Positions 1-46,904 of a stretch of 49,043 nt of DNA are shown piece after piece. The position numbers and the translations under genes are program-made. Source of the stretch: Escherichia phage PGN590. The DNA is taken from the sequence record NC_049830.1; one strand, 5' to 3'. The first letter of the stretch is position 1. Each line of letters opens with the position of its first letter. The notes under the pieces were generated by a model. It had not been told where the DNA came from. It saw only the letters and a program-made list of their open reading frames with translations, and searched no databases.

Positions 1-122
1 ATGCCCTTCATAACTTCATCAACATACTTCCCGCGCTTTTCAACATCCGCCTTCATTGCCTCGCCGCACTTCTTAGCCTGGCGTTTTGCAGCGTTGAATT
101 GTGCCTCGTTCATTCCAAACAT
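1..122 (-). CDS. hypothetical protein, partial (N-terminus only; runs off window start)
   Basis: ATG at 120-122 overlapping TAA of upstream ORF (TAATG); open frame to position 1; MFGMNEAQFNAAKRQAKK... Confidence 0.3.
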   Translation of the reverse strand, partial: MFGMNEAQFNAAKRQAKKCGEAMKADVEKRGKYVDEVMKG

Positions 123-28247: not shown

Positions 28248-28475
28248 ATGAAAAAATTAATCGCCGTTTTGATTGCAGCCGTAACCCTGACTGGTTGCGC
28301 AAATATGCCTAAGCGTGAATGCACGGCTATTTATGAAAATAGCGGTATGCAGTATTCAGTTGCTATTTTTGGAGTAAAACGAGTTGGCGACCGCACTCTT
28401 GTTAAGGCTGGCTATCCGTTTAATTTTCAGTGGGTAAGCATTGATAACTTTAAAAACGCTGATTGCAGTATGTAA
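28248..28475 (+). CDS. small lipoprotein, Cor/Llp-like superinfection-exclusion candidate
   Basis: AAGGAGA RBS; lipobox AAVTLTGC; 75 aa with two distal Cys; adjacent to tail genes. Confidence 0.5.
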   Translation: MKKLIAVLIAAVTLTGCANMPKRECTAIYENSGMQYSVAIFGVKRVGDRTLVKAGYPFNFQWVSIDNFKNADCSM

Positions 28476-28485
28476 ATAAAAATAA

Positions 28486-28506
28486 AGGGGCAAAAGCCCC
28501 TTTTTC
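28486..28506. terminator. bidirectional intrinsic terminator between convergent genes
   Basis: AGGGGC-aaaa-GCCCCT flanked by A-run upstream and T-run downstream. Confidence 0.7.
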
Positions 28507-29486: not shown

Positions 29487-29529
29487 TATTAAACCTCCAT
29501 AAATGCGGGGCAATCGCCCCGCTTTGATT

Positions 29530-32955: not shown

Positions 32956-33000
32956 GCTTTTTCACCTTTTGTGCTATTTGATTTGTTGAATTATACGGGC

Positions 33001-33027
33001 AAAAAAAAAGCCGCGCAACGCGCGACT
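33001..33027 (-). terminator. intrinsic terminator between I-like and J-like genes
   Basis: GC-rich stem followed by nine U on minus strand; RBS and J start follow. Confidence 0.55.
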
Positions 33028-33035
33028 CTTTTATA

Positions 33036-33632
33036 TTAAGCCTTATCCTCTGCATAACTCCCAGCCGACCATATAGCTCCGCCGACGGTCCTTTGACCGT
33101 ATGGCAATGGTATTGGGTATCCTGCCGCCGTTGTGTTAACTGCACCGCCAAAAGCGTAAGACGGCTTATTCTCTGCTGATTGGGATGATAACCGCGACCC
33201 GCCTTGCTGTGGTGAAATCATTTGCATTACACCACCCAGCACCATAGCACCACCCATCATGAAAGCAGACGATGCAAAAGCGCCCATCAAAGCAAGTGAG
33301 GAGCCGCCAGTGAAAAATGCAGTAGCCATAATAACCGCGCCAAGAACAACCTGAAACAACCCGCCAGACTTTGAACCTGTTGGGATTGGAATAATCCTCA
33401 CTTCCTTTGCACATTGCCACGCTTTTTCATCGTTCTGCCCTACATTCTTACCGTCAACAAATACAGCGTAACGCATTCTCGATCCCACTTCGCTTTGCAT
33501 GTAGTCCTTGAATCCTTCCACCTGCGAAGATAGTGCGCGTATTGCTTCGGGGTATGAATCAACAGCCAGCTTATGAAATACTCCAAATCTTCGGCCTAAA
33601 GATCCAGATAATTTAATTACCTTCAAAGTCAT
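33036..33632 (-). CDS. tail assembly protein (lambda I-like)
   Basis: PEAIRALSSQ and GSKSGGLFQVVLGAV with Gly/Ala-rich hydrophobic C-terminal half, as in lambda I. Confidence 0.7.
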   Translation of the reverse strand: MTLKVIKLSGSLGRRFGVFHKLAVDSYPEAIRALSSQVEGFKDYMQSEVGSRMRYAVFVDGKNVGQNDEKAWQCAKEVRIIPIPTGSKSGGLFQVVLGAVIMATAFFTGGSSLALMGAFASSAFMMGGAMVLGGVMQMISPQQGGSRLSSQSAENKPSYAFGGAVNTTAAGYPIPLPYGQRTVGGAIWSAGSYAEDKA

Positions 33633-34344
33633 ATTTTAGATCCTTATGTCTACAAACCATTTTTGCATGTTCCTGATACCATCCAGAATACAGATCAACC
33701 CTTGACAACTTGCCAAAGGCATGATGAAGCAACTGATTGTTGCCAAGATAAATGCCTGCATGATTCCACACTGGCGCGGAAAGCTGAAAGATAACCATAT
33801 CACCAGGTTTTGGCGGCTCTCCTGTTTCAATAAAACCCTCTTTCAGATAATTTTCTTGATAAAGATTTTCACCGTGCTCAGGCTTCCACCATTCATATGG
33901 TTTCCTGAAGTCATTCAGGATAACGCCATGTTGCTTATGCCATGCCATAATAAGCCCCCAGCAATCATACGCCCCAAGCGACCATGGGCGACCAATCAGA
34001 GGACGAGATTCAGGCTCAATGATTCTCATATCACCTTCGGGCCATGACACAATAACCCATGAAACACCCATTTCATCACACATGCATGTATCATGGGCGC
34101 TTGGAATTGTACTCGCCCCGTCTCCAGTGTGGCTATGCACAACAGCAATAAGCTCGCCACTTTCGCACGCTTCAACGTATTCAATTGCGTCCATCTCAAA
34201 ATGATTTTCAGGATCATCATGTACGTTGGTTATGCGGCGGTATTTTTGCACGCGTGATTTTTGAGTGATAACACCGCACGCCTCGCGCGGGTATTCATCT
34301 TTTACGTGCTGCATTATTTCAAGTTTTATTTTTGCACTAATCAT
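33613..34344 (-). CDS. tail assembly protein (lambda K-like, MPN/JAMM plus NlpC/P60)
   Basis: VHSHTGDG (JAMM-like) and AYDCWGL (NlpC/P60 Cys); ATG 34342-34344 overlaps L stop. Confidence 0.75.
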   Translation of the reverse strand: MISAKIKLEIMQHVKDEYPREACGVITQKSRVQKYRRITNVHDDPENHFEMDAIEYVEACESGELIAVVHSHTGDGASTIPSAHDTCMCDEMGVSWVIVSWPEGDMRIIEPESRPLIGRPWSLGAYDCWGLIMAWHKQHGVILNDFRKPYEWWKPEHGENLYQENYLKEGFIETGEPPKPGDMVIFQLSAPVWNHAGIYLGNNQLLHHAFGKLSRVDLYSGWYQEHAKMVCRHKDLKYDFEGN

Positions 34345-35105
34345 CACTGATTTCTCCTTAACAGGCTTGCTACTGGCGCACCGCCAAAATCAAGCTGCTG
34401 ATCTGCACCAAAACGAAGTTTGCACGCTGTTACAGTTCCGGCGCAAAAGTCTTGAGATGGATCGGTTACAGGATTGTTGTCTTTGTCAAACATTCGCGAT
34501 CCATTGTATCCGCAACCATTTCCGCTTCGATACCATCCACGCTGCGCCCAATAACAAACGCTTTGAGTTATTCGCGGAGGAATCATTATTCCATCCATAT
34601 CATAAGGCGATGTCAGATCAAACTTTGCCATCATTCTATTGTAATGGCTTGGGCGCTCAATGTAATAAACCAGCTTTCTTGAAGCGCCATCTTTAATGCT
34701 GCCATCTTTACCCATTAATTCTGCTGGCGTGATCCAGATTGTAACCTTAGCTTGCATCATGCCGTTAAAGTTGCGAATCATCGCGCTCACCTGGCTGTCA
34801 AGGTTTGACAGTATCAATTGTGGCTTATCAGCCTTTCCGTTGCTTGTGAAGTTGATACCTGATATTCCGAACGGGCGCGCGCCGTAAACCTCACCACGGA
34901 ATGTAATCTCTTTCGGCGGAAGAACTCCAGTTTCTCGCGCCTGCAATAATTCTTCCGCAGTGTATGAGATGTTCTCATTGTGTATGCGGTAAATGTTTGC
35001 GCCAAACTTTGTTCCGTCAATTTCAATTAGCGTGATAATCTCGCCAGGGTAAAGGCTTTGCAGACAATTTTCAAGATCCGCGCGACCTGTTGTTTCATTA
35101 GCCAT
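34344..35105 (-). CDS. minor tail protein (lambda L-like)
   Basis: AAGGAGG RBS; N-terminal MANETTGRADLENCLQSLYPGEIITLIEIDG; C-terminal Cys cluster. Confidence 0.7.
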   Translation of the reverse strand: MANETTGRADLENCLQSLYPGEIITLIEIDGTKFGANIYRIHNENISYTAEELLQARETGVLPPKEITFRGEVYGARPFGISGINFTSNGKADKPQLILSNLDSQVSAMIRNFNGMMQAKVTIWITPAELMGKDGSIKDGASRKLVYYIERPSHYNRMMAKFDLTSPYDMDGIMIPPRITQSVCYWAQRGWYRSGNGCGYNGSRMFDKDNNPVTDPSQDFCAGTVTACKLRFGADQQLDFGGAPVASLLRRNQ

Positions 35106-35139
35106 AACTGCACCTCCTTTCGTACATTGTATCATCAAT

Positions 35140-35162
35140 AAAAAAGCCGCACAAAGGCGGCT
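35140..35162 (-). terminator. intrinsic terminator between M-like and L-like genes
   Basis: minus-strand AGCCGCC/GGCGGCT hairpin plus six U, then AAGGAGG RBS. Confidence 0.6.
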
Positions 35163-35166
35163 TGAA

Positions 35167-35523
35167 TTATTGCATTGATGTAAATTGCTCAATAAATGTT
35201 GCTTTCACTTCCTGAACGGTTGCTGATATTGGAGTTAATCCAACGCTACCAGATTTTACCCTGAACAGACCAGGTTGACCATCAGGCATAAACCATAAAA
35301 ACGGCTTCAGCCTGTGCCCATTCAGGAAGTCAACAACGTCTCTGTAATCCTTGCCAACATAGACAATAGAAAACTCCCTGCGTACCGTGTTAAACCCTCC
35401 TGAAGCAACCTGCGTGTAACCATTGCCAAATGAGATTTCCCTGTCGTTATTTGATGTGGTCATAGTGCCGCCGCCTCCTTGCGTTTGCGTGCACCATTTG
35501 AATTGCTCAAGTTTCACTATCAC
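35167..35523 (-). CDS. minor tail protein (lambda M-like)
   Basis: KLEQFKW...[13 protein letters not shown] parallels lambda M N-terminus; GTG start overlapping tape-measure stop. Confidence 0.65.
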
Positions 35524-38192
35524 CCCCGCTTAGACATAACAAATTCGTAAACTTCCCCACCCTGCGTACAGGAACGCTTAATCATATCAGTGAAAATCAT
35601 TTTTACACCAGTCTCCAACCCTTTCGGATCGCTTCCGTTGTTAATATCAACGCTGATCCCGCCAATATTAAGATTTGTTGCTCCAGATGAAACGCCGCCG
35701 CCAGTGTATGAAGTTCCGCCAACAACGCCGCCATTTGCATAACCGCGCATCATTTTGTAAAGGTTTCCAACTCCGATCCGCTTCGTGGCCTCCTTCGTCA
35801 TGACAAACTCGCCTTTATGGACAACACCTGCTGGCTCATACTTCCCGCCGTCGCCAGTGTATCCACCAGTTGCAAACCCAACATTTTTAAGAAGGCTCCC
35901 AATCGTCCAAGTGTCACCGCCAATCGCACCAGATATGGCATTAAAGATAACCATCTTTGTGATCATCTGAATAATCATTTGGATGATTGACGTTGCGAAG
36001 CTCTTAAAATTTGCCTTACCTGTTGCAAGGAATGTAGCCATTTGATTGGTTAGACCATTGAGCGCCTCGCTTGCAATATCTTGCACGTTGCCGTACATAT
36101 CCATTGCATCTTGTCCGTAAACCTCCCAAGCGTTTTTTGCTCCTGCAATCCAGTTATTTCTAAGCTGATCTTCAGTGGCGTAATACTCCTTCAGCTTTGC
36201 TTCCATCTGCTGATAAATTTCATCGTCGATACTACCTCCGCCAGCAACATAATCAGTTCGCAACTTCTTCAACTCAAGCTCTCGCTGGATTTGCAGATCT
36301 GTAGCTCCAGACTGTCGCAAGTTCATAGCGTCAATAGCATCTGATGTTTGCTGAATGAATTTAAGCCCTTCCTGGTATTGCTTGTTCTTTCTCTGTTGCA
36401 AAACAATCTGATCGCCTATCTCTGCCTTTTCTTTTGCCATAGCAATAACTGCTTTTTGCTCGTTTAGTAACGCCTGTTCCGCTTTTGTCAGCTTGCGTTT
36501 GCTTTGCGCTTCCTCAAGGATCTGGATCTGCTTTTCAATACTCCACAAAGATTGCCTCTGGCGTGAAATAACATCATTTACAGTTCGGTGCTCTTTCAGC
36601 GTTTCAAGTTGCGCCTTGAGAACATATAGCTCCTTATCAAGCTGCTCTGTTGGTGCTTTTACAACTCCACCAACTTTCTCCTTTTGCTGCTGCGCCTTTT
36701 TCGCCTCTTCAAGCTCTTTTCGCCTGAACTCCACGTTCTCAGCTGCTCGTTTTTTCAACTCTTCGTCTGCTGTCCTTGCTACGTTCTTCTGATCCTCTAT
36801 GGCTTTGTTTAAAGCCTCTTGCGCCGCTCGCACTCTGTTTAATGAAAGGTTTTCCCTGTCTATGCGTGCTGCTCGTTCCGCCATATCCTTATTCGCATCT
36901 TTTACGATCTTTCCTATATCCTCATAGGTGTTCTTCGCAAATTGCAGCATTGGATTCACATAACCAAGCTCTTTCCCCAACAGCCCGCCTGACGGTGAAG
37001 CATAATCACGTTTTGCTTTTAAGACCGCATACCATGAATCGCCAAGCTCAAGAACTTTGTTTTTGTGATCGGCAATTTCATTGTTAAGACTTACAAAACT
37101 TGATGCTTTTTTGTATTCGTTTACTTTTGCCTTTGCTTCGTCATAGGTAAATCCAACATCGACGAGTTTTTGTATGGCCTCGCTTGCTCCATCCTTAGTG
37201 CTTATGTAAGCCTTTGCCAGATTATCGGCGCTCTCACCTGTCTTGTCAGATAGCGCCTGGATTCCCGTTGCAATCCGCTCCGCAAACTCACCAGAAAGAC
37301 CAGTAGCCTCCTGAACGGTTTTTGTGATCTCCTTCAGTTGCGCATTTGCTTTGTATGCATTATATGCAGCATAACCAAGAGCACCAGTCAGCGCCGTCAT
37401 TCCTACACTTAACGGCGTGACAAATGTCATTAGTGCTTTGAACGTATTCGCAACACCACCGAATGAGTCCTTGATCTGTCCACCCTGCTGGATTGCGACC
37501 ATCCACACTGGCATTCCTGAAGCAAGAGAAGTAACAACGTCAGTGATCTGCATTGGTAATTGCGCCATTGCTTGCTTATACTGCCCCATAGAAACGCCAA
37601 GTTTTGAGGCTTGTTTTTCCTGCTCCTTCATTTTTGCAATAAATGGCGCTGCCTCTGCACTAACTCCAAGTTGTGCAGCTCTCATTTCAACAAGTTCTGA
37701 TTTTGTCTTTTCTGCTGCGTCTGCTTGTGCCTGTAATGCCGCAATGAACTTTCTGGCCTCAGCCTCTGCCCTGGCTTTATTCTTTGCTTCCTCAAGCGCC
37801 GCTCGGCCTTCTTCTGTTAGCGCCTTTTTCGTTGCGATCAGCTTGTTTTGCTGCGTCTCAAGAATTGAACCTAATTCAAAGAATGTATCATCCGGTACAA
37901 TTCCTTTTTTCCATAGTGCATCAAGCTGTGTCGCAGCCTGGCGCAACTTATCCATCTTGCTGGCTGTTGGATCTATTGCCGACTGAATTGCTTTAAATTC
38001 TTGCTTCTGCTTTGCCAATTCCTCAGCCAGTTGTTTGGCTCTTTGTCTTGCAACAACCTCTGAATCAACAAAACCCTCAACGCTTCCCTTTGCGTCGTCG
38101 TTTGCCTTCTTGAATTGCTGCAAAGACTTTACAGCATTGTTGAGTTGAGAAACGTCAACCCCAAGCGTCAAGCCTGCGTATTGTTCTGACAT
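35520..38192 (-). CDS. tail tape measure protein
   Basis: 890 aa, long alpha-helical/coiled-coil, Gly-rich C-terminal segment; sits between chaperone genes and M-like gene. Confidence 0.85.
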
Positions 38193-38211
38193 TATTAATC
38201 CTCCAGGTAAT

Positions 38212-38233
38212 AAAAAAGCGCCCGTAGGCGCTT
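38212..38233 (-). terminator. terminator-like hairpin between chaperone and tape measure genes
   Basis: AAGCGCC-cgta-GGCGCTT plus six U; overlaps T stop; GGAGG RBS follows. Confidence 0.55.
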
Positions 38234-38860
38234 ATTTTGAATGCATCATTTCAAGTGCTTTTTGCTCCATGATTCGCAAGTCGTTTAGCGCCATCTCGCG
38301 ATCCTCAACCTTGTAAATCTCAAAAAGCATAGGCAAGACATTATAATCAAATCCGTAAGCACCACCGCCTGAACATCTCCATTGCGTTTGCATTGCGCAA
38401 AATATATCCCATGATTGCATCATGCTTTCATCAAATATAACCTCTGGCGGATCTTCTCCTTCATAGTCTGCCCTTGTAAGGCCAACAGCCTCAAGCTCTG
38501 CATCTGTCGGCGGTTTCTGATAAAACAGGTAAACCGCCCTTTTTAGTTTTTTACTCGCTGCCCCGCAAGCGCTTTCATGTATGCGCTAGTTAATCCGATT
38601 GCTGTTGCTGGGTAGTAATCAAGAAGCCGTTTAATATTTTCTTCGTTAAATTCATCATCAAGATTCCAACCAGAAGCAAGGAAGGTGATCATTTCAACAT
38701 CGCTCATTGGAGTATCTGACGTGTAGCGCTCGTGAATCTCACTTGTTTTGCGGTGGCGAACTGTGAAGATAATTGTTTGATCTTCTCCGTTAGGCATTGC
38801 AAATTCCACTGGTAATTTAAAGTCAGGAAGCGGCCCAATCGTCAATTTCATTTTTGACAT
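38232..38860 (-). CDS. tail assembly chaperone frameshift fusion (G-T-like) via -1 slip
   Basis: -1 frame from slippery site 38546-38552 is open through ORF 38232-38423; checked codon by codon. Confidence 0.55.
38543..38860 (-). CDS. tail assembly chaperone (lambda G-like)
   Basis: 105 aa acidic protein upstream of tape measure; ends ..QRVKN with slippery A_AAA_AAC. Confidence 0.65.
   Translation of the reverse strand: MSKMKLTIGPLPDFKLPVEFAMPNGEDQTIIFTVRHRKTSEIHERYTSDTPMSDVEMITFLASGWNLDDEFNEENIKRLLDYYPATAIGLTSAYMKALAGQRVKN
38546..38552 (-). other. -1 programmed ribosomal frameshift slippery site (A_AAA_AAC)
   Basis: last two sense codons of G-like gene; -1 frame open into downstream ORF. 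Confidence 0.55.
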
Positions 38861-38873
38861 TTCTTTCTCCTTG

Positions 38874-38892
38874 ATAGCACTTTTTGTTAAAA
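38874..38892 (+). promoter_or_regulatory. repeat copy oriented antisense to the late genes
   Basis: ATAGCACTTTTTGTTAAAA on plus strand between major tail and G genes; TATCAT 22 nt downstream. Confidence 0.4.
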
Positions 38893-38931
38893 GAATTGAT
38901 TATGAATCGTGTATCATGATTGTACAGTAAC

Positions 38932-38954
38932 AAAAAAAGGGGCGCAACGCCCCT
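38932..38954 (-). terminator. intrinsic terminator after major tail gene
   Basis: AGGGGCG-caa-CGCCCCT plus seven U on minus strand. Confidence 0.75.
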
Positions 38955-38959
38955 TGTGA

Positions 38960-39622
38960 TTATGCTACTTGAGAAGGTAGGAAGGTGAATCGACCTTTCA
39001 GGGATACAGAAAGGGAAACAGTTTCCATTTCGTTAACGGTCGTTTGTGGGATCTCGTTAAACGAAAGCACACCAGCCCAGCAACGCATCTCTTTTGCTTT
39101 TGGTACATACATGCGAAGAGCGGTTACTTCTCCTGATTCATCTGCTGAACGCAATAGCGGATAGATCGCGTTATCGTATTCGTGCGCAAAAGTGTAGGTA
39201 AGAGAAACGGCGCTCTTATATGTAGGTAACTGCTGTTCTTGATCGTCTGCCAAACACTGATAAGTGTAGTATTGCTGTTCGCCGCCGTCCTGCGACAAAT
39301 CTTGAACGCAAGGAATCTCAGTCCATGCATCAATTTTTGCAAAAGATGCAGTACCGCCAGACGGGAAAACGTTCTGATCAGTAGTATCTACACCTTCAAG
39401 AGTCACGCTTGTTTCTTCGCCGTTAGCCTTTACACGCATAACACGATCAATCAGCTTACCCCAAGAAGACGCAGTGATGATAACATAATCACCTTTCTTG
39501 TACGAAGTGCCGCCAGATGCAACGGTGAATACAGGATCTTTAGCGTTTGATACTGCCGTTGCTTGGATTTCGCTGCCGCGATTGCTCTCAACGAAAATTT
39601 GCGATCCATTTGGTAAATGCAT
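38960..39622 (-). CDS. major tail protein
   Basis: AAAGGAG RBS; position immediately upstream of chaperone genes; strong terminator after stop. Confidence 0.6.
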   Translation of the reverse strand: MHLPNGSQIFVESNRGSEIQATAVSNAKDPVFTVASGGTSYKKGDYVIITASSWGKLIDRVMRVKANGEETSVTLEGVDTTDQNVFPSGGTASFAKIDAWTEIPCVQDLSQDGGEQQYYTYQCLADDQEQQLPTYKSAVSLTYTFAHEYDNAIYPLLRSADESGEVTALRMYVPKAKEMRCWAGVLSFNEIPQTTVNEMETVSLSVSLKGRFTFLPSQVA

Positions 39623-39626
39623 AATT

Positions 39627-40025
39627 TTACTCCTTTGTTTCAATTCGAACATAAAATCTTACAGGGAGAAGCCAACCGCTTTCACTCTTGAGCGGCTTGT
39701 GAACTCTTGCACCCTCATATATATAACCATGCTCCAACATTTTACCATCGTAAAAGAATTGCGCAATCTCTTTAGCGAGAACGCGCGGCCTGTCAGTTCC
39801 GTAACCTGGTGGAAACACAATGCCAACCTGAATCATTCCGATATAGGAAACGCATTTTCGATCCAATGACAAGTATTCTGTATCAACTTCGGCATAGTCA
39901 AACTTCAACCACGGCGAACCGTCACCAGGTGGCGTAAACTCTACGTTTTCATAAGCGATCTTGAATCTGCTCTCGTATTCAGTCGCCAGCGCCTTACGCG
40001 CTGATAGCATTAATTCATAGTGCAT
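39627..40025 (-). CDS. tail terminator/completion protein (by position)
   Basis: synteny between head-tail joining genes and major tail gene. Confidence 0.45.
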   Translation of the reverse strand: MHYELMLSARKALATEYESRFKIAYENVEFTPPGDGSPWLKFDYAEVDTEYLSLDRKCVSYIGMIQVGIVFPPGYGTDRPRVLAKEIAQFFYDGKMLEHGYIYEGARVHKPLKSESGWLLPVRFYVRIETKE

Positions 40026-40458
40026 TTTTAGCCCTCGACTCTTTTATTGCTTCAGCCATATAAGATCTCAACTTAACCGCGACAATCCCAAGCACACCCG
40101 CTGGCGCTTGTTTTGAATGACCGTACTCAAGCGCGTTAGCGTAAATAAGCATATTTGAAAAATAAATGGCCCTTACTGCGCCGCCACCTCTCAATATTGC
40201 GTATATGGCGCGCTTGCCTTCCGCTATCGTTTTGTCGCCGTGCTTATCGTACTGATTAAGCGCATACAATGGCGGCTTGTTTGCTGTTACCTGCCAGTTT
40301 GCACGGTAACGACCAGTATCTACCGGAGAACGCTTAACCAAATCTGTGTGTACTTTTTCGGCGAACAACTCCACGCAATCTTTTAGTCCACTATCAACGG
40401 CGTTTATCCACGCATCAATGTTGCCGTGAAATTCCCTTATCGTGTAGTTTTTAGCCAT
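40015..40458 (-). CDS. tail completion protein (HK97 gp10-like motif)
   Basis: RSPVDTGRYRANW resembles the VDTG..R signature of HK97 gp10-type tail components. Confidence 0.5.
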   Translation of the reverse strand: MAKNYTIREFHGNIDAWINAVDSGLKDCVELFAEKVHTDLVKRSPVDTGRYRANWQVTANKPPLYALNQYDKHGDKTIAEGKRAIYAILRGGGAVRAIYFSNMLIYANALEYGHSKQAPAGVLGIVAVKLRSYMAEAIKESRAKNAL

Positions 40459-40822
40459 GTACGGAAATCCTTCTCAAAATAGGCCGATAAGCAACAGTGA
40501 CATTAGTTTGTCTGATTGGTCTTGCTTCAACTACAACATATAATTCACCATCAACATCAATATGATACCCGTTCTTAATTTCAACTTTATTGTTAAAAAC
40601 TCCCAACTTATCGGTTACTCGTATTGTCTCTCCGTCAACCTCGCGGAATTTTGGGGAGCGAATTAAACCTTTAATCATTACACTGATCTCTGGCTTTTCT
40701 ACTTCTTCGCCTCCGATGATTTCAACGCTTCCACGCTGCGTTATGCACTTAAACTCACCGTTGTCATCACTGAAGAAGTTTATTCCTTCAGTTGCCATTC
40801 TTGCGATCTCGTTATAGTTCAT
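40451..40822 (-). CDS. head-tail adaptor/closure protein (by position)
   Basis: ATG 40820-40822 with GGAG RBS overlapping upstream stop. Confidence 0.4.
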
Positions 40823-41235
40823 TTGCAACGTCTCCGAAATCCAGTCACAAGGCCAAATCCACCGCCTTTCTTACGATTTAGCGTTTCATACATTTTTCCC
40901 CAGGGAGTTTGTCTAATCTCTTTTCCGCCAGAGTCGCCTGACACTCGATCAAAAGTCTGGCTAAATTCACCAGTCAGGGAAAATGATGCAACTCGCCGCG
41001 AGTAACTTTCTACGCTTTCCCCTTCTTGCTTCATTGCTCCGTCAAGCGTCATAAGGTGCAACGTATAAAGAGCAACCGCTTTGGGATATGATTCTTTAAA
41101 CCGCTTCTTGCAAACAAATTCCTTTGCAAGATCAATCCATGCCGCCATTAAATCTGGATCAATCTGCTTCATCGGTGGCGCCAATTTCACGATTTGCTGC
41201 GTGATTTCTGCGTCAGTGAAAAATTCATCAACCAT
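40819..41235 (-). CDS. head-tail connector protein (by position)
   Basis: GGAGGAA RBS; synteny downstream of capsid gene. Confidence 0.4.
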
Positions 41236-41282
41236 TGTGTTTCCTCCAGATATGACAAAGGGCGCTTATAGCGCCCTCTTTA

Positions 41283-41555
41283 TTAATAGATGCCGCCGTC
41301 TTCAAGTTCGGCTTTGCTCTTGCCCTCTCGCGGGTCTTTTTTACGTTTGCTTGCTGCGCTCTGTTTGATTTCTTCGTTCAATGCGGAGTTATCTTTAACC
41401 TCCAGATCGCCTTTTGCAATTAGATATTCAAACGCGCTTGTTTTCAATTTTGATTCTTCTACGTCAAACTCTTTTCCTGGGTGATAATGCTCACCATCAA
41501 CAATGATAAGGCACACGCCGGAAACCTTTAGCGTTACAGTTTTTTCTTTAGCCAT
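41283..41555 (-). CDS. hypothetical head-associated protein
   Basis: GGAGG RBS directly after terminator hairpin 41577-41598. Confidence 0.4.
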   Translation of the reverse strand: MAKEKTVTLKVSGVCLIIVDGEHYHPGKEFDVEESKLKTSAFEYLIAKGDLEVKDNSALNEEIKQSAASKRKKDPREGKSKAELEDGGIY

Positions 41556-41570
41556 TTCATAACCTCCAAT

Positions 41571-41598
41571 AAAAAAGGGAATCCAGTTAAGGATTCCC
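41571..41598 (-). terminator. intrinsic terminator after major capsid gene
   Basis: GGGAATCC-agttaa-GGATTCCC plus six U; GGAGG RBS follows. Confidence 0.7.
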
Positions 41599-41611
41599 CA
41601 ATGCTATACGA

Positions 41612-42586
41612 TTAACCTGTTTTTTTCAAGCCAGTAATAAGCACTAGCGTAAACGGACGGTAAATCGTCAGGCCAGTGCATTTTGAAGTGCACGGAACTT
41701 TGAAATGCAGATCTTTTGGTTGCGCCGGAAGCATGTTAAATGCTTCTGGAATTTCGATAGACATGTTCATCGGGTCTTTCTCATATACCAGGCAACCTTT
41801 CGTTCCAGTGCCATCAATATCCTCAAGCTCTGCGATTGAGTCGAAGGTTATTCCGCTGTTTTGTTTCTGGAAGTATTCCAGATAACTTTCAGTGGTGTTT
41901 TCCATTCGAACAGAAAGAACCTTGCGCATAGACGGCGGAATCAGGATATTGGTTGCGCGGTGCTGACCATTGGTGATGGTCTGAATGGTTTCAATAGCCT
42001 TTTCCAGTTCATCAGATGCTGCCTGCGGGAACTTAGTGTTTTCATCAGCACTTAACCAGCCAGTTGACACGATCTTTGTCAGGTTAGGATGTTCAAACAC
42101 CGAAAGAATCTTATGCGGCTTTGAACCCTTAAACACCAGGCGGTTAACTTCCTGATCATGAGCGTTTTGCGCTGCGTTTGCCTTGCGAGTCGAAAGGCTC
42201 TTACCAGTGCGCTGACCAGCCTTGATTTCGTCAATGGAGATCAAGAACGCGTTACCCAGGCGGAACACCTTGCCAAACTCGCTTGACATTAAAGCGTCAA
42301 CAGTTGGCAGATCGTCGGTGTAATCAGCGATAATTTTTGCGTAACCAACCCTGTCAAACATCTGATATTCAAAAGTCTTATCAGTATCAGAAAGCTCATT
42401 AGTTACAGGGAACACACGAAGCGCTGAACCTGCCGGATACTCTTTCTCGTAAGCAGTTGAGCGGATCTTGTGAAGCTCTTGCGCCGTCCAGATACCCATA
42501 TCAGAAGCATCACCCTTAACGCCGCGAGTAGCCAGATAGCTAGAAACAATATCCGCATCTAGCTGATCAAATTTTTCTTTTTCCAT
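41612..42586 (-). CDS. major capsid protein
   Basis: 324 aa; GGAGGAAGAA RBS; position between scaffold/decoration genes and head-tail genes. Confidence 0.8.
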   Translation of the reverse strand: MEKEKFDQLDADIVSSYLATRGVKGDASDMGIWTAQELHKIRSTAYEKEYPAGSALRVFPVTNELSDTDKTFEYQMFDRVGYAKIIADYTDDLPTVDALMSSEFGKVFRLGNAFLISIDEIKAGQRTGKSLSTRKANAAQNAHDQEVNRLVFKGSKPHKILSVFEHPNLTKIVSTGWLSADENTKFPQAASDELEKAIETIQTITNGQHRATNILIPPSMRKVLSVRMENTTESYLEYFQKQNSGITFDSIAELEDIDGTGTKGCLVYEKDPMNMSIEIPEAFNMLPAQPKDLHFKVPCTSKCTGLTIYRPFTLVLITGLKKTG

Positions 42587-42632
42587 TTTCTTCCTCCATA
42601 TATAAAGGTCGTTAGTATGTAACGGACCAATG

Positions 42633-42650
42633 ATAGCATTTTTTGTTAAA
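42633..42650 (+). promoter_or_regulatory. repeat copy oriented antisense to the late genes
   Basis: ATAGCATTTTTTGTTAAA on plus strand upstream of capsid gene; weak TATGAG 22 nt downstream. Confidence 0.35.
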
Positions 42651-42669
42651 CGTGCAACCTAATTTTGTG

Positions 42670-43104
42670 TTATGAGTCAATGCTTACCCCGACAATATAT
42701 GAATCATGATCAACCTTTACATGTTCGCCAGTAAAGATCCAACCGCTCAGTAAGTCGCCTTCACTGTATGCCGCATCTCCATCTTGCGTTACAAATACTT
42801 TATCTCCATATTCTGGCGCTTCGCTCTCAGAAGTTAAGCACCAAACAATACCTCGACTAACAACACTAATTGGATCACCATCCTCATATATGCACGAGTC
42901 CAGCGGCCTTACTGCCACGCCAATAACAAGATCCCCATTAATACTGGCTATTTTGTATCCATTTGTTATATGTGATAGTCGAACAATCTTACCTGGCGCA
43001 ATAAATTCATCTCCGCACACGAAAGATCCGTTAATCACCATTATTGAAGAATCGACCATGCACCCTGGCGACTCAACGCCAACAATGACTGAATAATCAC
43101 TCAT
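42670..43104 (-). CDS. head structural/decoration-like protein (paralogue of 43151-43663)
   Basis: start set to ATG 43102-43104 (MSDYSV, GGAG RBS); shares GxVWxL...DGxxxxxSGxIxxxWIxTG pattern with neighbour. Confidence 0.45.
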   Translation of the reverse strand: MSDYSVIVGVESPGCMVDSSIMVINGSFVCGDEFIAPGKIVRLSHITNGYKIASINGDLVIGVAVRPLDSCIYEDGDPISVVSRGIVWCLTSESEAPEYGDKVFVTQDGDAAYSEGDLLSGWIFTGEHVKVDHDSYIVGVSIDS

Positions 43105-43120
43105 GAGAAACTCCAAATAT

Positions 43121-43143
43121 AAAAAAGGCGCTCAGTGAGCGCC
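43121..43143 (-). terminator. intrinsic terminator between paralogous head genes
   Basis: GGCGCTC-agt-GAGCGCC plus six U; GGAG RBS follows. Confidence 0.7.
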
Positions 43144-43150
43144 ATATTTA

Positions 43151-43663
43151 TTAACCTGCTGAAACTGCCGGAACTTTTTGCACCTGAACCTCTACCAGCT
43201 TCAAGCCTTGAAACTCGGTGAAATCACCAGTCGCGATCCAGTTGGTTTCGATAGTGCCAGACGCGGTGTCAACCTGACCATCATCAGAAAGTTTGATTGT
43301 AGCGCCGAACGCTGGCGCGGAAGCGTCTTTAGCCAACATCCAAACACGCCCCTCAGTCATTACGTTGATTCCGCTGCCAGATTCATAAATCATTCTACCG
43401 TCAGCCGAAGTCGTCTGGAAGTGGGATCGAATTGCAACACCGTAAGCCTTGCCGCTTGCCGCCATCGGCTTAATTAGCTTATTGCCCATAGCATCAACGC
43501 CGCCATGCTGGACTGCAACACCAACAAAAATGTTTTTGTTCTGGTTGCCTGCCGCATTCTCAAGAACACAAGCGCCATCAATATTATAAGCTGAAGTATC
43601 AGAAACCTGACCAGGTAACGCACGAGACATTACAGCAAAATAACTTGCTCCAATTGTAGCCAT
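43151..43663 (-). CDS. head structural/decoration-like protein (paralogue of 42670-43104)
   Basis: NVMTEGRVWMLA...LSDDGQVDTASGTIETNWIATGDF parallels neighbour. Confidence 0.45.
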   Translation of the reverse strand: MATIGASYFAVMSRALPGQVSDTSAYNIDGACVLENAAGNQNKNIFVGVAVQHGGVDAMGNKLIKPMAASGKAYGVAIRSHFQTTSADGRMIYESGSGINVMTEGRVWMLAKDASAPAFGATIKLSDDGQVDTASGTIETNWIATGDFTEFQGLKLVEVQVQKVPAVSAG

Positions 43664-43675
43664 GTTTATTTCTCC

Positions 43676-44788
43676 TTATTTAAGTTTTTTCAAACGCGCA
43701 GTCGGATCAAGGGAGTCGGTTTTTTCACTCTTGCCAGATTCGAAAGAATCGCCCTTGACAGATTTACGCTGCGCCGCCATTTTATCAGACTGCTTCGCAA
43801 GGTCAAAAGCTGTTTCAATATATGCATCGGCTTTTTCTGAAATATCAGCGCCAGTGACTTCTTTGACGTAAGCAACCTTGATCGCTTTAGCGTCCAAGCC
43901 GTCACACTTGATGCCAATTTCAGTTGCATCTGCAACCAGCTTGGCATGTTCTTCTGCGTCAGTCTTTGCCTTCTTAACAGCTTCTGCAATCTGCGCCGGA
44001 ATGCCATCGACTTTAGTTTTCAGGGCGTCGCGCTCTGCCTCAAGGCCATCAGCTTTTTCGGTTGCAGCTTTTGCATCTGCCTTTAACGCCTCAATATGAT
44101 CAGCAACGGCCTTTGGAACATCAAATTCTACCGCGCCATCAAGTTTGATTTTTACTGTCATTTCCTCATCTCCTTTGTCATTTGGAACCTCGTCACTATA
44201 CGGAAAATCCTGTTCGCTATCAAGATTTAATTTGGCAATGCCAGCACGACCACGAAAGACAAGTGCAATGTGATTAACGCGGATATTCGTCTGAATGGCG
44301 TCAAATTTAACCCAATCAGGAGAATCAGGCTTCCAGTCTTCCTTTAGGTCTTCCTCAAACAAGTAATCACCGGTTTTATTATTACCCCAGCCTGGCTTGT
44401 CAATATCAACCGATGTGTAACCAACTGAAATTTCCGCTGTGTCTTTCTTTTTTGCGCTCTCAATTGCTCGCTTTGAGTAAATGCTTAACGGAACTTCAAC
44501 GCCAATCCCATTTGGAACACCAGCGCCAGCGCATGAACCAACAACAACCTGATCCGCATTATCTGGCGTTACTGTGACGTGACCGATAGTGATCGGCTTG
44601 CCTGCGAACGTAGCAAGCGAATCAGCCTTAAACACCTCTGAGGCTGGTCGGAACTCTCGTCTTATTCCGTATGGTGTGCGGTACTCCTGCAAACCAATTC
44701 GCGCCACAATTGGGCGATCCACTAAAAAACCATTATCATCAAAATGCGCCTTAACCTGAACGCTATCAAATCTTTGTTTTGCCTTCAT
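43676..44788 (-). CDS. prohead scaffolding protein (possible N-terminal protease-like domain)
   Basis: C-terminal Ala/Lys/Glu/Asp-rich coiled coil; position between head morphogenesis and capsid genes. Confidence 0.5.
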   Translation of the reverse strand: MKAKQRFDSVQVKAHFDDNGFLVDRPIVARIGLQEYRTPYGIRREFRPASEVFKADSLATFAGKPITIGHVTVTPDNADQVVVGSCAGAGVPNGIGVEVPLSIYSKRAIESAKKKDTAEISVGYTSVDIDKPGWGNNKTGDYLFEEDLKEDWKPDSPDWVKFDAIQTNIRVNHIALVFRGRAGIAKLNLDSEQDFPYSDEVPNDKGDEEMTVKIKLDGAVEFDVPKAVADHIEALKADAKAATEKADGLEAERDALKTKVDGIPAQIAEAVKKAKTDAEEHAKLVADATEIGIKCDGLDAKAIKVAYVKEVTGADISEKADAYIETAFDLAKQSDKMAAQRKSVKGDSFESGKSEKTDSLDPTARLKKLK

Positions 44789-44791
44789 TAA

Positions 44792-45556
44792 TTACTCTCC
44801 TTTATTATTCCAATCTGGAATCGCCCAGCAACGGCAACCCCACGGCTCACCAGGGAAATCATGAATTGCATCAAGCGCTATTCTTTTACCTTCCCATAAC
44901 ACATGCTGCAATCGCTCTCTATCATCTAACATCCCATGCCAGAAATAATGAGTCACCTTAGCATCATAAAGGCGCTGGCGCATCAGGCGACTATTCCACG
45001 CTCCGATAATGTTTTCTGATCTCGTTTTACCCCAAGAGCTATAAACAGCAAATCTCTTTTCTGCAAGATCATTAACCTGTTTATCATTGCTTCCGCGAAA
45101 GTTTGCATTGCGAATGTTTGTTGACCAGTCAGACACAATATTTGTGAATAGCTTCCTTAGCGATGATTCTGTAAGGCCGTGCCATTGACCGTAAAGCGTC
45201 TTATACCACTCCTCGTTAGCGTTAGCGCCAACCGCGATCAAAACAATTACCGCCGTATTATCCTTTCCGCCTGTTGACTTGGCAACATTTATGAACTGCT
45301 TCGCATTGAACTTATAGATGGTCAACGCGATTGCAGGAAGAGTGGAAACAATGCCAGCTATAAGGTCAGTTGCCAGGCTGTTAATTTCATCTTCTGCGCT
45401 GTTGATCTCATTATCTGTTGCGTCAAACTTCATCGCTTTTGTTCGCTTGCGCATGAGAATTACAAGATCTCTGATTGCCTCCTGAATTGAGCGGCTAAGT
45501 TGCCGCTCGCTTGCTTCAGGAAAGCGCCATTGTTTAACGACGCCCTTCACTTTCAT
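44792..45556 (-). CDS. head morphogenesis protein (Mu F / SPP1 gp7-like)
   Basis: C-terminal HYFWHGMLDDRE...GEPWGCRCWAIPDW; directly downstream of portal. Confidence 0.65.
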   Translation of the reverse strand: MKVKGVVKQWRFPEASERQLSRSIQEAIRDLVILMRKRTKAMKFDATDNEINSAEDEINSLATDLIAGIVSTLPAIALTIYKFNAKQFINVAKSTGGKDNTAVIVLIAVGANANEEWYKTLYGQWHGLTESSLRKLFTNIVSDWSTNIRNANFRGSNDKQVNDLAEKRFAVYSSWGKTRSENIIGAWNSRLMRQRLYDAKVTHYFWHGMLDDRERLQHVLWEGKRIALDAIHDFPGEPWGCRCWAIPDWNNKGE

Positions 45557-46836
45557 TACTCATTCCCCTGTGTGCCTGGCTCCGGCTCCGTTGGATCCGG
45601 CAGCTTGATTTTATTAGTGTCCTTTAGTTTAACGCTTGGGGCGATTGCTCGCAACGTGTCTCGCGCTTCTTCAACATCAAGGAACTGACCATCAATAGCC
45701 TTGCTGATTGAGTCGATATTCTTATTCAGAATTTCAGCCTGATCCTTATCGCTAGGTACGTTCAAAGGTGAAAACTTAACACTCCACTCCTGCTCACTAA
45801 TGATGAACGGCAATAGAAATTCAAGGATTGGCTTGTAATCCTCGACGCGTTTTCGTTCAATCAGCTTATAGAATGTTTCAAGCGCCGTGTTTTGGCTTGC
45901 GCTAACGCCGCCAACGTTTTTATTTTTCAGGATGATTTCATGAATACCTGAAAGGGAAACGATGCGATCCATTTTCTTTTCCAGAAAAGAATCAACGCCG
46001 CTAATGTCAGAGTTAAGAACATCATATTCTTCATCTTCTGCATCAATACCAATTGCCTTGCCTACTCCGCCCTCATCGTCAACCTGCGCAAGTCTCAGGC
46101 GTGCCGCGCTAACACCTTCCTCATCATCGCACAAGTCAGCGAGTCCTTTAGCCTTCCATACCGCCTGTTGCTTCCGCCGCAATAATTGCGTTGCTAATGT
46201 TTCACAATAGTTATAATCAACAATAGCCTCAACAAGTCGCTTGTTAAGAACTGACTCACCCCAGCCATCATTGCTGCGTCGCTTTGCGTTAGGTATCCGC
46301 TCACCATCGATAATGCAAACTCGCGTGTAGTGAACTTGGTATTCCGGCAAGTCTCCACCAGGCGTTACAGTGTAAAGCACTGGCTCACCATAGCGAACCT
46401 TGCGGGGATTAGTTTCGCGCGCTTCAACGCGAATCTGATAACGATCATAAACGCGCACATCTTCCAGGATAGCTCCAGGCTTTACAGGTGATTTGAGCGC
46501 TCGCCCATCCTGAACAAGAGCAATGATTGCAGATCCACCAAACAAACGCGACCAACAAAGCGCATCAATAATTTTTGCATTGAGTCGCTTCTCATCCCAC
46601 AAAGAACGGAATGCTGCCTCGTCTGCCACGCCGTCAATAGTAAAGCCAGGGGAAACCATTTCCTCTGGTACTACGTCAATAACCCTTTTTGCCAGGCCAT
46701 CTTTTTCGTAAAAGTCAGCAAGCGTCTTGTATGGCATTGATTGCATGTAGAATGGTTGCTCTGCTCGCGATTTGCAATTCTCGCCTTTAAAGATCTCATT
46801 ATAGCCGTCAGCCTTAACGATTCGTGATTTACTCAT
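45556..46836 (-). CDS. portal protein
   Basis: 426 aa; position between large terminase and head morphogenesis gene. Confidence 0.75.
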   Translation of the reverse strand: MSKSRIVKADGYNEIFKGENCKSRAEQPFYMQSMPYKTLADFYEKDGLAKRVIDVVPEEMVSPGFTIDGVADEAAFRSLWDEKRLNAKIIDALCWSRLFGGSAIIALVQDGRALKSPVKPGAILEDVRVYDRYQIRVEARETNPRKVRYGEPVLYTVTPGGDLPEYQVHYTRVCIIDGERIPNAKRRSNDGWGESVLNKRLVEAIVDYNYCETLATQLLRRKQQAVWKAKGLADLCDDEEGVSAARLRLAQVDDEGGVGKAIGIDAEDEEYDVLNSDISGVDSFLEKKMDRIVSLSGIHEIILKNKNVGGVSASQNTALETFYKLIERKRVEDYKPILEFLLPFIISEQEWSVKFSPLNVPSDKDQAEILNKNIDSISKAIDGQFLDVEEARDTLRAIAPSVKLKDTNKIKLPDPTEPEPGTQGNE

Positions 46837-46851
46837 TATCTTTCCTCCAAT

Positions 46852-46874
46852 AAAAAAGGCTGGATTTACCAGCC
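46852..46874 (-). terminator. intrinsic terminator between terminase large subunit and portal
   Basis: GGCTGG-attta-CCAGCC plus six U; GGAGG RBS and portal ATG follow. Confidence 0.65.
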
Positions 46875-46904
46875 TTTGATTATATATTGGTTTGTCGATT
46901 CGTG

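What the first reader, a model, noticed from the sequence alone, without database searches (positions are those of the whole stretch)
33001..46874. Late structural operon punctuated by seven hairpin plus U-tract terminators, each directly followed by an RBS
On the coding (minus) strand, GC hairpins followed by 6-9 U occur between TerL and portal (46852-46874), between the two paralogous head genes (43121-43143), after capsid (41571-41598), after major tail (38932-38954), between chaperone and tape measure (38212-38233), between M-like and L-like genes (35140-35162) and between I-like and J-like genes (33001-33027). Each is followed within about 10-30 nt by a Shine-Dalgarno sequence and start codon. 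This implies graded readthrough or attenuation, 3' stabilisers of upstream segments, or a requirement for antitermination; it could set structural protein stoichiometry.
Basis: seen in the sequence. Interest (0 to 1): 0.5.

Follow-up and report, generated by a model that had tools for sequence, protein, structure and literature searches.

The report
Conserved terminators partition T1-like late genes
The seven hairpin-plus-U-tract signals are real transcription terminators found at the same gene junctions across T1-like phages; the T1 record already annotates five of them, and most are paired with promoter-like sequences, so the structural region looks like a chain of short transcription units, not one leaky operon.

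Summary
The window is a T1-like siphophage (Drexlerviridae), about 97% identical to phages slyngel, herni and pSf-1.

**Observation.** All seven hairpin/U-tract sites exist on the coding (minus) strand, in non-coding gaps. A strict scan finds 8 such sites in the late region, against 0.67±0.83 in shuffles.

**Conservation.** In 92 related loci the same junctions carry a terminator in 67-99% of cases. Each junction has 19-38 different stem sequences, and compensatory changes were shown formally for one junction.

**Prior knowledge.** GenBank records of T1 and MM01 already annotate terminators at these junctions. The TLS paper cites T1's late region as modules flanked by rho-independent terminators.

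"Directly followed by an RBS" holds for four sites only.
- Three sites (tail tube|chaperone, M|L, I|J) carry a promoter-like TTGnnn-17-TAnnnT. Its -35 lies in the hairpin loop and its -10 just after the U tract.
- Two tight sites (TerL|portal, capsid|next gene) have a -10 abutting the hairpin, so their own transcripts would start inside the stem.
- Chaperone|tape-measure has no promoter-like element, and the cement-gene junction has none in this window. These two fit pure attenuation.

No 5'/3' end mapping for any T1-like phage was found. Ordinary and largely known; modest interest.

The parts
46849..46877 (-). Terminator between TerL and portal. Hairpin AAAGGCTGG-TAAAT-CCAGCCTTT (46855-46877) with U tract to 46849. 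SD GGAGG at 46844-46848, portal ATG at 46836.
   Evidence: Present in 55/82 related loci and tight in 42/42 distinct contexts.
46879..46884 (-). TATAAT -10-like hexamer ending 1 nt upstream of the TerL|portal hairpin. Predicted start is about 46872, inside the 5' arm.
   Evidence: A TAnnnT hexamer abuts the hairpin in 41/42 distinct contexts, 23 of them TATAAT. Residual hairpin is -3.8 kcal/mol against -13.5 for the full hairpin.
43115..43143 (-). Terminator between the two paralogous cement (decoration) genes. Hairpin GGCGCTC-ACT-GAGCGCC (43127-43143) with U tract. SD at 43111-43114, ATG at 43104.
   Evidence: A terminator follows the first cement gene in 77/86 loci. Annotated in T1 at 14237-14269.
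42630..42657 (-). Promoter-like TTGCAC-16-TATCAT upstream of the major capsid gene (ATG 42586). Its spacer and -10 are the reverse complement of the family's ATAGCAC direct repeat.
   Evidence: TTGnnn-16/17-TATnnT occurs in 80/81 distinct family contexts.
41568..41599 (-). Terminator after the major capsid gene. Hairpin GGGGAATCC-TTAACT-GGATTCCCT (41576-41599) with U tract. SD at 41563-41567, ATG at 41555.
   Evidence: Present in 89/90 loci with 38 distinct hairpins. Annotated in T1 and MM01.
41601..41629 (-). Promoter-like TTGAAA-17-TAGCAT ending 1 nt upstream of the capsid terminator hairpin. Predicted start is about 41594, inside the 5' arm.
   Evidence: All 42 tight family contexts have an abutting -10, and 39 of them have TTG 16-18 nt upstream, against 6/28 long contexts. 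Residual hairpin is -3.1 against -15.0 kcal/mol.
41258..41278 (-). Strong hairpin (-14.9 kcal/mol) between orf46-like and connector genes, with no U tract in this phage.
   Evidence: Most relatives carry a canonical terminator here.
38929..38955 (-). Terminator after the tail tube gene. Hairpin AAGGGGCG-TTG-CGCCCCTT (38937-38955) with U7.
   Evidence: Present in 80/81 loci. Annotated in MM01.
38919..38947 (-). Promoter-like TTGCGC(38942-38947)-17-TACAAT(38919-38924) straddling that terminator. The -35 is in the loop and 3' arm, the U tract is the spacer. Predicted start is about 38912, chaperone ATG at 38860.
   Evidence: The same geometry occurs in 58/65 distinct contexts, against 0/44 at chaperone|tape-measure.
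38208..38233 (-). Terminator between the chaperone (G/GT) and tape measure genes. Hairpin AAGCGCC-TACG-GGCGCTT (38216-38233), which overlaps the TAA stop, with U6. SD at 38200-38204, ATG at 38192. No promoter-like element.
   Evidence: Present in 65/67 loci and tight in 44/44. Covariation: 97% of cells paired, 5/7 pairs compensatory, 0/500 shuffles.
35137..35163 (-). Terminator between the M-like and L-like genes. Hairpin AAGCCGC-CTTTGT-GCGGCTT (35144-35163) with U6.
   Evidence: Present in 76/77 loci. Annotated in T1 and MM01.
35126..35154 (-). Promoter-like TTGTGC(35149-35154)-17-TACAAT(35126-35131) with an extended TG (TGATACAAT). Predicted start is about 35119. SD at 35113-35118, L ATG at 35105.
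   Evidence: A good -10 lies within 16 nt after the hairpin in 49/58 contexts.
33001..33032 (-). Terminator between the I-like and J-like genes. Core hairpin GTCGCGCG-TTG-CGCGGC, extended by A/U pairs (33004-33032), with U9.
   Evidence: Present in 70/73 loci. Annotated in T1.
32990..33018 (-). Promoter-like TTGCGC(33013-33018)-17-TATAAT(32990-32995) straddling the I|J terminator. Predicted start is about 32983, J ATG at 32955.
   Evidence: A -10 matching at least 5/6 follows the hairpin in 54/54 distinct contexts. Exact TTG-16..18-(T/C)AnnnT occurs in 35/54.
29505..29522 (-). Hairpin GCGGGGC-GATT-GCCCCGC between J and the next gene, followed by AUUUAU rather than a full U tract.
   Evidence: T1 has an annotated terminator at this junction.
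28474..28503 (-). Terminator that ends the structural block. Hairpin AAAGGGGC-TTTT-GCCCCTTT with AUUUUUAUUU. It faces a convergent plus-strand gene.
   Evidence: T1 has an equivalent at 29602-29624.

Best explanation
The seven sites are genuine Rho-independent terminators read by the host RNA polymerase. They are orthologous to terminators at the same junctions in T1 and MM01, where most are already annotated.

Together with an eighth terminator at 28474-28503 they cut the structural region into short transcription units. Most are physically interlocked with sigma-70-type promoters, in two fixed geometries.

(a) At tail tube|chaperone, M|L and I|J, the -35 (TTG) sits in the hairpin loop, the U tract forms the 17-nt spacer, and the -10 follows directly. 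Polymerase coming from upstream is released and a new transcript starts about 10 nt later.

(b) At TerL|portal and capsid|orf46, where the RBS follows the U tract at once, a -10 (with TTG 17 nt upstream at the capsid site) ends 0-2 nt before the hairpin. The new transcript would begin inside the 5' arm and could not form the terminator.

The capsid gene has its own promoter upstream. Chaperone|tape-measure has no promoter-like element, and in this window neither does the junction between the two cement genes. There, downstream genes depend on readthrough, which fits the low copy number of the tape measure.

Shown here: the sequence features, their positions and their conservation. Inferred: termination, promoter activity, start sites and the effect on stoichiometry.
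For: - The terminator features exist and exceed chance: 8 strict sites against 0.67±0.83 in shuffles, all intergenic and on the sense strand.
- They are conserved by position in 92 loci whose capsid proteins are 48-98% identical: 67%, 90%, 99%, 99%, 97%, 99% and 96% at the seven junctions, with 19-38 different hairpin sequences each.
- Formal covariation at chaperone|tape-measure: 97% of cells paired, 5 of 7 pairs with changes on both sides, 0/500 shuffles reaching the observed score.
- Geometry (a): TTG-in-hairpin-16..18-(T/C)AnnnT occurs in 58/65, 25/58 and 35/54 distinct contexts, and a good -10 within 16 nt after the hairpin in 49/65, 49/58 and 54/54. At the four tight junctions the TTG pattern occurs in 0/42, 0/62, 0/70 and 0/44.
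- Geometry (b): an abutting -10 occurs in 41/42 TerL|portal contexts and in 42/42 tight capsid contexts, 39 of the latter with TTG 16-18 nt upstream. It occurs in 6/28 long capsid contexts and 0/44 chaperone|tape-measure contexts.
- The TTG falls on different codons of the capsid C-terminus in this phage and in T1 but keeps the 17-nt spacing.
- With a start 7 nt after the -10, the residual hairpin averages -3.1 and -1.4 kcal/mol, against -14.4 and -14.5 for the full hairpins.
- A capsid promoter TTGnnn-16-TATnnT occurs in 80/81 contexts.
- Prior annotation and description: (PMC11447400, citing the T1 genome paper).
Against: - There are no experimental 5' or 3' ends for any T1-like phage in the searched library.
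- Most -35 elements match the consensus in only 3-4 of 6 positions, and TerL|portal has no convincing -35. The tool's own promoter scan found fewer promoter-like sites in the region than in shuffles.
- Stop codons and AT-rich spacers raise the background of TAnnnT hexamers. An abutting -10 is seen in 15-44% of contexts at junctions where no such promoter is proposed.
- Geometry (b) at TerL|portal depends on the exact start. A start 5 nt after the -10 would keep a -11.3 kcal/mol hairpin.
- The loci are phylogenetically related, so the counts are not independent.
- The authors of the TLS paper, using stricter promoter criteria, could not confirm transcriptons in TLS.
Confidence: 0.6

Rival explanations
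1. One long late transcript with graded readthrough. A single upstream late promoter drives the whole block, and each leaky terminator lowers the polymerase flux to downstream genes and leaves a stabilising 3' hairpin.
For: - Four sites leave no room for a downstream promoter: the RBS begins 0-3 nt after the U tract, and the start codon lies 18-23 nt from the hairpin end.
- Chaperone|tape-measure has neither promoter geometry in 44/44 contexts.
- Sequential readthrough of phage terminators has been measured in LUZ7 and is cited for T7 (PMC9163698).
Against: - Conserved promoter-like elements in fixed register with five of the seven hairpins, plus a capsid promoter.
- The most abundant protein, the capsid, lies downstream of two or three terminators. 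That is the wrong order for a purely decreasing gradient.
Confidence: 0.22
2. Phage-induced antitermination. A phage factor makes the host polymerase terminator-resistant late in infection, as lambda Q does. The terminators would then act as a temporal gate, not as stoichiometry setters.
For: - The hairpins have 7-9 core pairs, 5-6 of them G-C, and 6-9 U, so they look efficient. They stand in front of essential genes.
- Time-dependent terminator readthrough is reported in LUZ7.
Against: - No Q/N-like protein is annotated in the curated T1 record.
- None was found among the 10 early or regulatory ORFs scanned against PHROGs.
- Conserved internal promoters make antitermination unnecessary for most modules.
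- The protein scan was partial, so absence is weak evidence.
Confidence: 0.08
3. The hairpins act mainly as RNA stabilisers or processing signals, protecting the 3' ends of upstream segments, with little real termination.
For: Strong hairpins persist without a U tract at 41258-41278 and 29505-29522, and at TerL|portal in Webervirus.
Against: - U tracts are retained at the seven sites in 67-99% of loci while the stem sequence turns over.
- The stems are too short (7-10 bp) for RNase III (established knowledge, not tested here).
- This role is not exclusive of termination.
Confidence: 0.07
4. DNA-level elements: inverted repeats that bind a protein or promote recombination at module boundaries.
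For: Relatives carry extra ORFs or HNH genes inserted exactly at these junctions.
Against: - The stems vary in sequence and keep pairing through compensatory changes.
- The T tract is strand-asymmetric and always on the coding strand.
- The hairpins share no sequence motif.
Confidence: 0.03

Closest known systems
Rho-independent terminators of the coliphage T1 late region ('transcriptons'; GenBank AY216660; T1 genome paper PMID 14972552 as quoted in PMC11447400)
   Same: The structural genes are in the same order and belong to the same family. The T1 record annotates terminators at cement|Ig-cement, after the capsid, chaperone|tape-measure, M|L and I|J, plus after J and at the end of the block. 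T1 also has unannotated hairpin and T-tract sites at TerL|portal and after the tail tube gene.
   Different: Stem sequences differ. T1 has two further terminators that are absent or decayed here: one before the capsid gene, and one at orf46|connector. The T1 paper itself could not be read, so what it says about promoter geometry is known only second-hand.
ARNold-predicted terminators annotated in Escherichia phage vB_EcoS_MM01 (MK373793, Rogunavirinae)
   Same: Terminators are annotated after TerL, after the cement gene, before and after the capsid, after the tail tube, before the tape measure and after M.
   Different: The capsid is only 48% identical. The hairpins mostly have UUCG-type loops. 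After the tail tube, a direct-repeat-type promoter and an extra ORF follow the terminator, in place of the TTG-in-loop promoter.
Leaky terminators with sequential readthrough in phage operons (LUZ7 by ONT-cappable-seq, PMC9163698; T7 as cited there)
   Same: Intrinsic terminators between structural genes that would tune transcript levels. This is the likely mode at chaperone|tape-measure.
   Different: Those cases are measured and these are only predicted. LUZ7 and T7 use phage polymerases, whereas no RNA polymerase or sigma gene was found in the related phage TLS, which its authors therefore expect to rely on the host enzyme.
Lambda late operon with Q antitermination
   Same: Lambda-like tail genes (tape measure, M, L, K, I, J) in the same order, with terminators inside a late gene block.
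   Different: Lambda uses one late promoter plus Q. Here there are several conserved promoter-like elements, and no Q homologue was found. The lambda facts are recalled from memory, not tested here.

Membership tests
Intrinsic (Rho-independent) terminator | GC-rich stem-loop (stem of at least 5-6 bp, loop of 3-8 nt) | tested here: met
   Seven of seven sites have stems of 7-13 bp with 5-6 G-C pairs and fold at -10.4 to -16.4 kcal/mol.
Intrinsic (Rho-independent) terminator | Run of U directly 3' of the stem on the transcribed strand | tested here: met
   Six to nine consecutive T at all seven sites, on the minus strand only.
Intrinsic (Rho-independent) terminator | Placed after a stop codon in non-coding sequence, more often than chance | tested here: met
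   Eight of eight strict sites are intergenic. Shuffles give 0.67±0.83.
Intrinsic (Rho-independent) terminator | Structure conserved through compensatory substitutions | tested here: met
   There are 19-38 distinct hairpins per junction. At chaperone|tape-measure 97% of cells pair and 5/7 pairs are compensatory, with 0/500 shuffles reaching that. The formal test was run on this one junction only.
Intrinsic (Rho-independent) terminator | Releases E. coli RNA polymerase in vitro or in vivo | not testable with these tools
   No Term-seq or 3' mapping for T1-like phages was found.
T1-family late-region terminators (orthologues of those annotated in AY216660 and MK373793) | Same gene junction in a syntenic structural module | tested here: met
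   Five of seven are annotated in T1 and all seven are detectable in the T1 sequence. MM01 also annotates TerL|portal and tail tube|chaperone.
Sigma-70 promoter (for the interlocked elements) | -10 TAnnnT with a TTG-type -35 at 16-18 nt, conserved in position | tested here: met
   Window: TTGCGC-17-TACAAT, TTGTGC-17-TACAAT, TTGCGC-17-TATAAT, TTGAAA-17-TAGCAT and TTGCAC-16-TATCAT. TerL|portal has only the -10.
Sigma-70 promoter (for the interlocked elements) | Mapped primary 5' end or promoter activity | not testable with these tools
   No data were found. Predicted starts are about 46872, 42623, 41594, 38912, 35119 and 32983.
Lambda-type Q/N antiterminated late operon | Phage-encoded antiterminator and a single late promoter | tested here: inconclusive
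   None in the curated T1 annotation and none in 10 ORFs scanned against PHROGs. Most early ORFs were not scanned. Several internal promoter-like sites argue against a single promoter.
Regulated attenuator (leader peptide, riboswitch, T-box) | Alternative antiterminator structure or a known RNA family upstream of the terminator | tested here: not met
   Rfam gives 0 matches in the window at gathering threshold. The hairpins start 3-27 nt after, or in one case overlap, the upstream stop codon, which leaves no leader.

The most novel reading that the evidence does not exclude
The terminators and promoters of T1-like late genes are interlocked modules with two conserved registers. In one, the -35 lies in the terminator loop and the U tract serves as the promoter spacer. 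In the other, the -10 abuts the hairpin, so the module's own transcript starts inside the 5' arm and cannot form the terminator that stops upstream polymerases. This would be a compact 'insulate and restart' design that sets each structural module's mRNA level independently. One promoter-less attenuator would be kept in 97% of assessable loci to hold the tape measure below its chaperone. I found no description of these registers in the searched library.
Probability: 0.4. Interest if true: 0.5.

Novelty: already known. Interest (0 to 1): 0.25.

Why it matters
It explains how a lytic phase that appears to rely on the host polymerase could give very different amounts of capsid, tail tube, tape measure and fibre proteins from one co-oriented gene block.

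It also offers short, natural terminator-promoter cassettes that could be tested as insulators in E. coli.

The basic fact is already in the T1 literature and in GenBank annotation. The added value is the family-wide evidence and the fixed terminator/promoter geometry, both of which await 5'/3' end mapping.

Tried and rejected
- My first RNAfold-based terminator finder was too permissive and returned many long floppy hairpins. I replaced it with a strict stem, loop and T-tract rule.
- I first read the reverse-oriented ATAGCAC repeats in the gaps before the capsid gene and after the tail tube gene as antisense promoters. In relatives the antisense -10s are poor. The capsid-gap copy is instead the spacer and -10 of a conserved sense promoter, so I dropped the antisense reading for that site. 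It stays open for 38874-38892.
- A promoter inside the chaperone frameshift ORF (TTGCCT-17-TAAAAT in 8 of 12 loci) is absent from this window and is probably protein-coding conservation.
- The T1 genome paper (PMID 14972552) is not held.
- Literature searches for T1-like transcriptomes, and for promoters starting inside terminator stems, found nothing.
- Rfam gave no match.
- A PHROGs scan of 10 early ORFs found a transcriptional regulator (20953-21426) but no antiterminator.
- MAFFT alignment of the TerL|portal hairpins (A3) was too shifted for a pair count, so formal covariation was run only on chaperone|tape-measure.

Full report
**What the window is.** The 14-kb region of the finding is 96-97% identical to Salmonella phage slyngel, Escherichia phages herni and vojen, and Shigella phage pSf-1. 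It matches several hundred other T1-like siphophages at lower identity. The structural genes lie on the minus strand.

**Checking the observation.** The tool's terminator scan recovers all seven sites on the minus strand. RNAfold gives simple hairpins of about -10 to -17 kcal/mol, each followed by 6-9 U.

Every site lies between a stop codon and the next start. At the chaperone|tape-measure site the TAA stop forms the base of the stem.

I applied a strict rule: a perfect stem of at least 6 pairs with at least 4 G-C pairs, a loop of 3-8 nt, and at least 5 T in 7. The sense strand of 28.4-49 kb then holds 8 sites, all intergenic. One hundred dinucleotide shuffles give 0.67±0.83, with a maximum of 3. 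The eighth site, 28474-28503, ends the block. Two further strong hairpins, 41258-41278 and 29505-29522, lack a U tract.

There the start codon is 18-23 nt from the hairpin end. At M|L, I|J and tail tube|chaperone it is 38, 48 and 76 nt away.

**Already annotated elsewhere.** The curated GenBank record of T1 (AY216660) marks rho-independent terminators at these junctions of its late region:
- cement|Ig-cement
- before the capsid gene
- after the capsid gene
- after orf46
- chaperone|tape-measure
- M|L
- I|J
- after J
- at the end of the block

The record of phage MM01, a different subfamily, also marks terminators after TerL and after the tail tube gene.

[quoted passage not shown] It reports 21 intergenic terminators in TLS (PMC11447400). 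Other T1-like genome papers count 8-21 terminators (PMC4070988, PMC7718038). The phenomenon is therefore known at the level of sequence prediction. I found no transcript-end mapping for any member of the family.

**Conservation.** I collected 11 annotated relatives spanning Tunavirus, Tlsvirus, Webervirus, Nouzillyvirus, Braunvirinae and Rogunavirinae. I added 80 IMG/VR loci found with a capsid alignment. Junctions were located by tblastn and scanned with the same rule. A terminator is present at:

| Junction | Loci with terminator |
|---|---|
| TerL\|portal | 55/82 |
| after the first cement gene | 77/86 |
| after the capsid gene | 89/90 |
| after the tail tube gene | 80/81 |
| chaperone\|tape-measure | 65/67 |
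| M\|L | 76/77 |
| I\|J | 70/73 |

Each junction has 19-38 different hairpin sequences. On an alignment of the 19 distinct chaperone|tape-measure hairpins, 97% of cells pair and 5 of 7 pairs show changes on both sides. No shuffle of 500, and no slid register, approaches this. So the stem-loop and the U tract are under selection, not a particular sequence. That fits an RNA terminator and argues against a protein-binding DNA repeat.

**Promoter-like elements locked to the hairpins.** The three sites with longer downstream spacers share one geometry in this window:
- TTGCGC-17-TACAAT (38947 to 38919)
- TTGTGC-17-TACAAT, with an extended TG (35154 to 35126)
- TTGCGC-17-TATAAT (33018 to 32990)

In each, the TTG lies in the hairpin loop, the U tract is the spacer, and the -10 follows at once. 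Across distinct family contexts the results are:

| Junction | TTG-in-hairpin pattern | Good -10 within 16 nt after the hairpin |
|---|---|---|
| tail tube\|chaperone | 58/65 | 49/65 |
| M\|L | 25/58 | 49/58 |
| I\|J | 35/54 | 54/54 |

At all four tight junctions the TTG pattern occurs in 0 contexts. They serve as an internal control.

Two of the tight junctions show a second geometry, a TAnnnT hexamer ending 0-2 nt before the hairpin.
- At TerL|portal it occurs in 41/42 contexts, and 23 of these are TATAAT.
- Among capsid|orf46 contexts with a tight spacer it occurs in 42/42, and 39 of these also have TTG 16-18 nt upstream.
- It occurs in only 6/28 capsid contexts with a long spacer, and in 0/44 at chaperone|tape-measure.

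In this phage and in T1 the TTG falls on different codons of the capsid C-terminus but keeps the 17-nt spacing.

A start 7 nt after such a -10 lies inside the 5' arm. The residual hairpin then averages -3.1 kcal/mol at TerL|portal and -1.4 at capsid|orf46, against -14.4 and -14.5 for the full hairpins. Such transcripts would not be stopped by the terminator they start in.

The gap before the capsid gene carries TTGCAC-16-TATCAT (42657 to 42630). A TTGnnn-16/17-TATnnT element is present there in 80/81 distinct contexts.

**Most likely mechanism.** The late region is best read as a chain of short units:
- TerS-TerL
- portal to first cement gene
- second cement gene
- capsid
- orf46 to tail tube
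- chaperone, with tape measure and M by readthrough
- L-K-I
- J
- the last two genes

Each unit ends in an intrinsic terminator. Most begin at a host-type promoter interlocked with the previous terminator. Chaperone|tape-measure has no promoter-like element, and in this window neither does the cement|cement junction.

Everything about activity is inference. The -35 elements are weak, TerL|portal has none worth the name, AT-rich spacers inflate the background of -10-like hexamers, and the loci are related. The TLS authors, using strict promoter criteria, could not confirm transcriptons in TLS.

**Rivals.**
- Pure graded readthrough of one transcript is contradicted by the conserved promoter registers. 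The capsid gene also lies behind two or three terminators.
- Antitermination cannot be excluded. No Q/N-like protein appears in the T1 annotation or among the ten ORFs I scanned.
- A stabiliser-only role is compatible with the U-less hairpins but not with the conserved U tracts.
- No Rfam family matches.

**Verdict.** The feature is already known for this phage family, and the interlocked geometry is a modest, testable refinement.

Noticed in passing
window, 22 sites, e.g. 1207-1225(-), 5087-5105(-), 9038-9056(+), 11595-11613(+), 17377-17395(-), 18397-18415(-): The direct repeat ATAGCACnnnTTGnTAAAA occurs 22 times with up to 3 mismatches, against 2.7±1.7 in shuffles. In the early and middle regions it sits, in most copies, exactly 18 nt upstream of a TATAAT-like -10 in the direction of the downstream gene. 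This looks like a phage-specific promoter class. It is the 21-nt repeat whose function the TLS paper left open.
   Followed up: partly
window 17357-17375, 18377-18394, and the spacers after the repeats at 2552-2570, 6755-6773, 11595-11613 and 26668-26686: Many of these repeat promoters have a GC-rich inverted repeat, different in each copy, filling the 18-nt spacer between the repeat and the -10. They are hairpins without U tracts embedded in promoters. Their purpose is unclear (some were flagged as terminator-like).
   Followed up: no
window 42633-42651 (+ strand copy) within 42630-42657: Read on the coding strand, a reverse-oriented copy of the repeat forms the spacer and -10 of the promoter-like element upstream of the capsid gene. 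The reverse-complement repeat is present in 68/81 distinct family contexts. One motif used in two registers suggests a DNA-binding regulator that treats the capsid promoter differently from early promoters.
   Followed up: partly
window 32959-32977(-) and 38874-38892(+): A repeat variant, ATAGCACAAAAGGTGAAAA, overlaps the Shine-Dalgarno of gene J and is conserved in T1 and four other relatives. A perfect reverse copy abuts the SD of the chaperone gene. In this phage it also has a plausible antisense -10 (TATCAT, 18 nt away) pointing into the tail tube gene.
   Followed up: partly
L007 6680-7192; L009 5599-5931; L010 2962-3315; L009-L011 after the tail tube gene; L011 19195-19719: Relatives carry extra genes inserted exactly at the terminator junctions. 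These include homing/HNH endonucleases, a small virion protein and a membrane-like ORF. Those at TerL|portal and after the tail tube gene have their own repeat-type promoter. The junctions look like moron-style insertion hot spots.
   Followed up: no
window 41258-41278 and 29505-29522: Two strong hairpins (about -15 kcal/mol) sit at junctions where T1 and most relatives have canonical terminators, but here they lack the U tract. They may be decayed terminators or stabiliser-only hairpins.
   Followed up: partly
L007 8790-8830, L008 10040-10080 (Webervirus TerL|portal): Klebsiella Webervirus phages keep CATAAT plus a GC hairpin (GTGGGCTTAACGGCCCAC) at TerL|portal but have no U tract. The promoter-hairpin pairing thus survives where the terminator function seems lost.
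   Followed up: no
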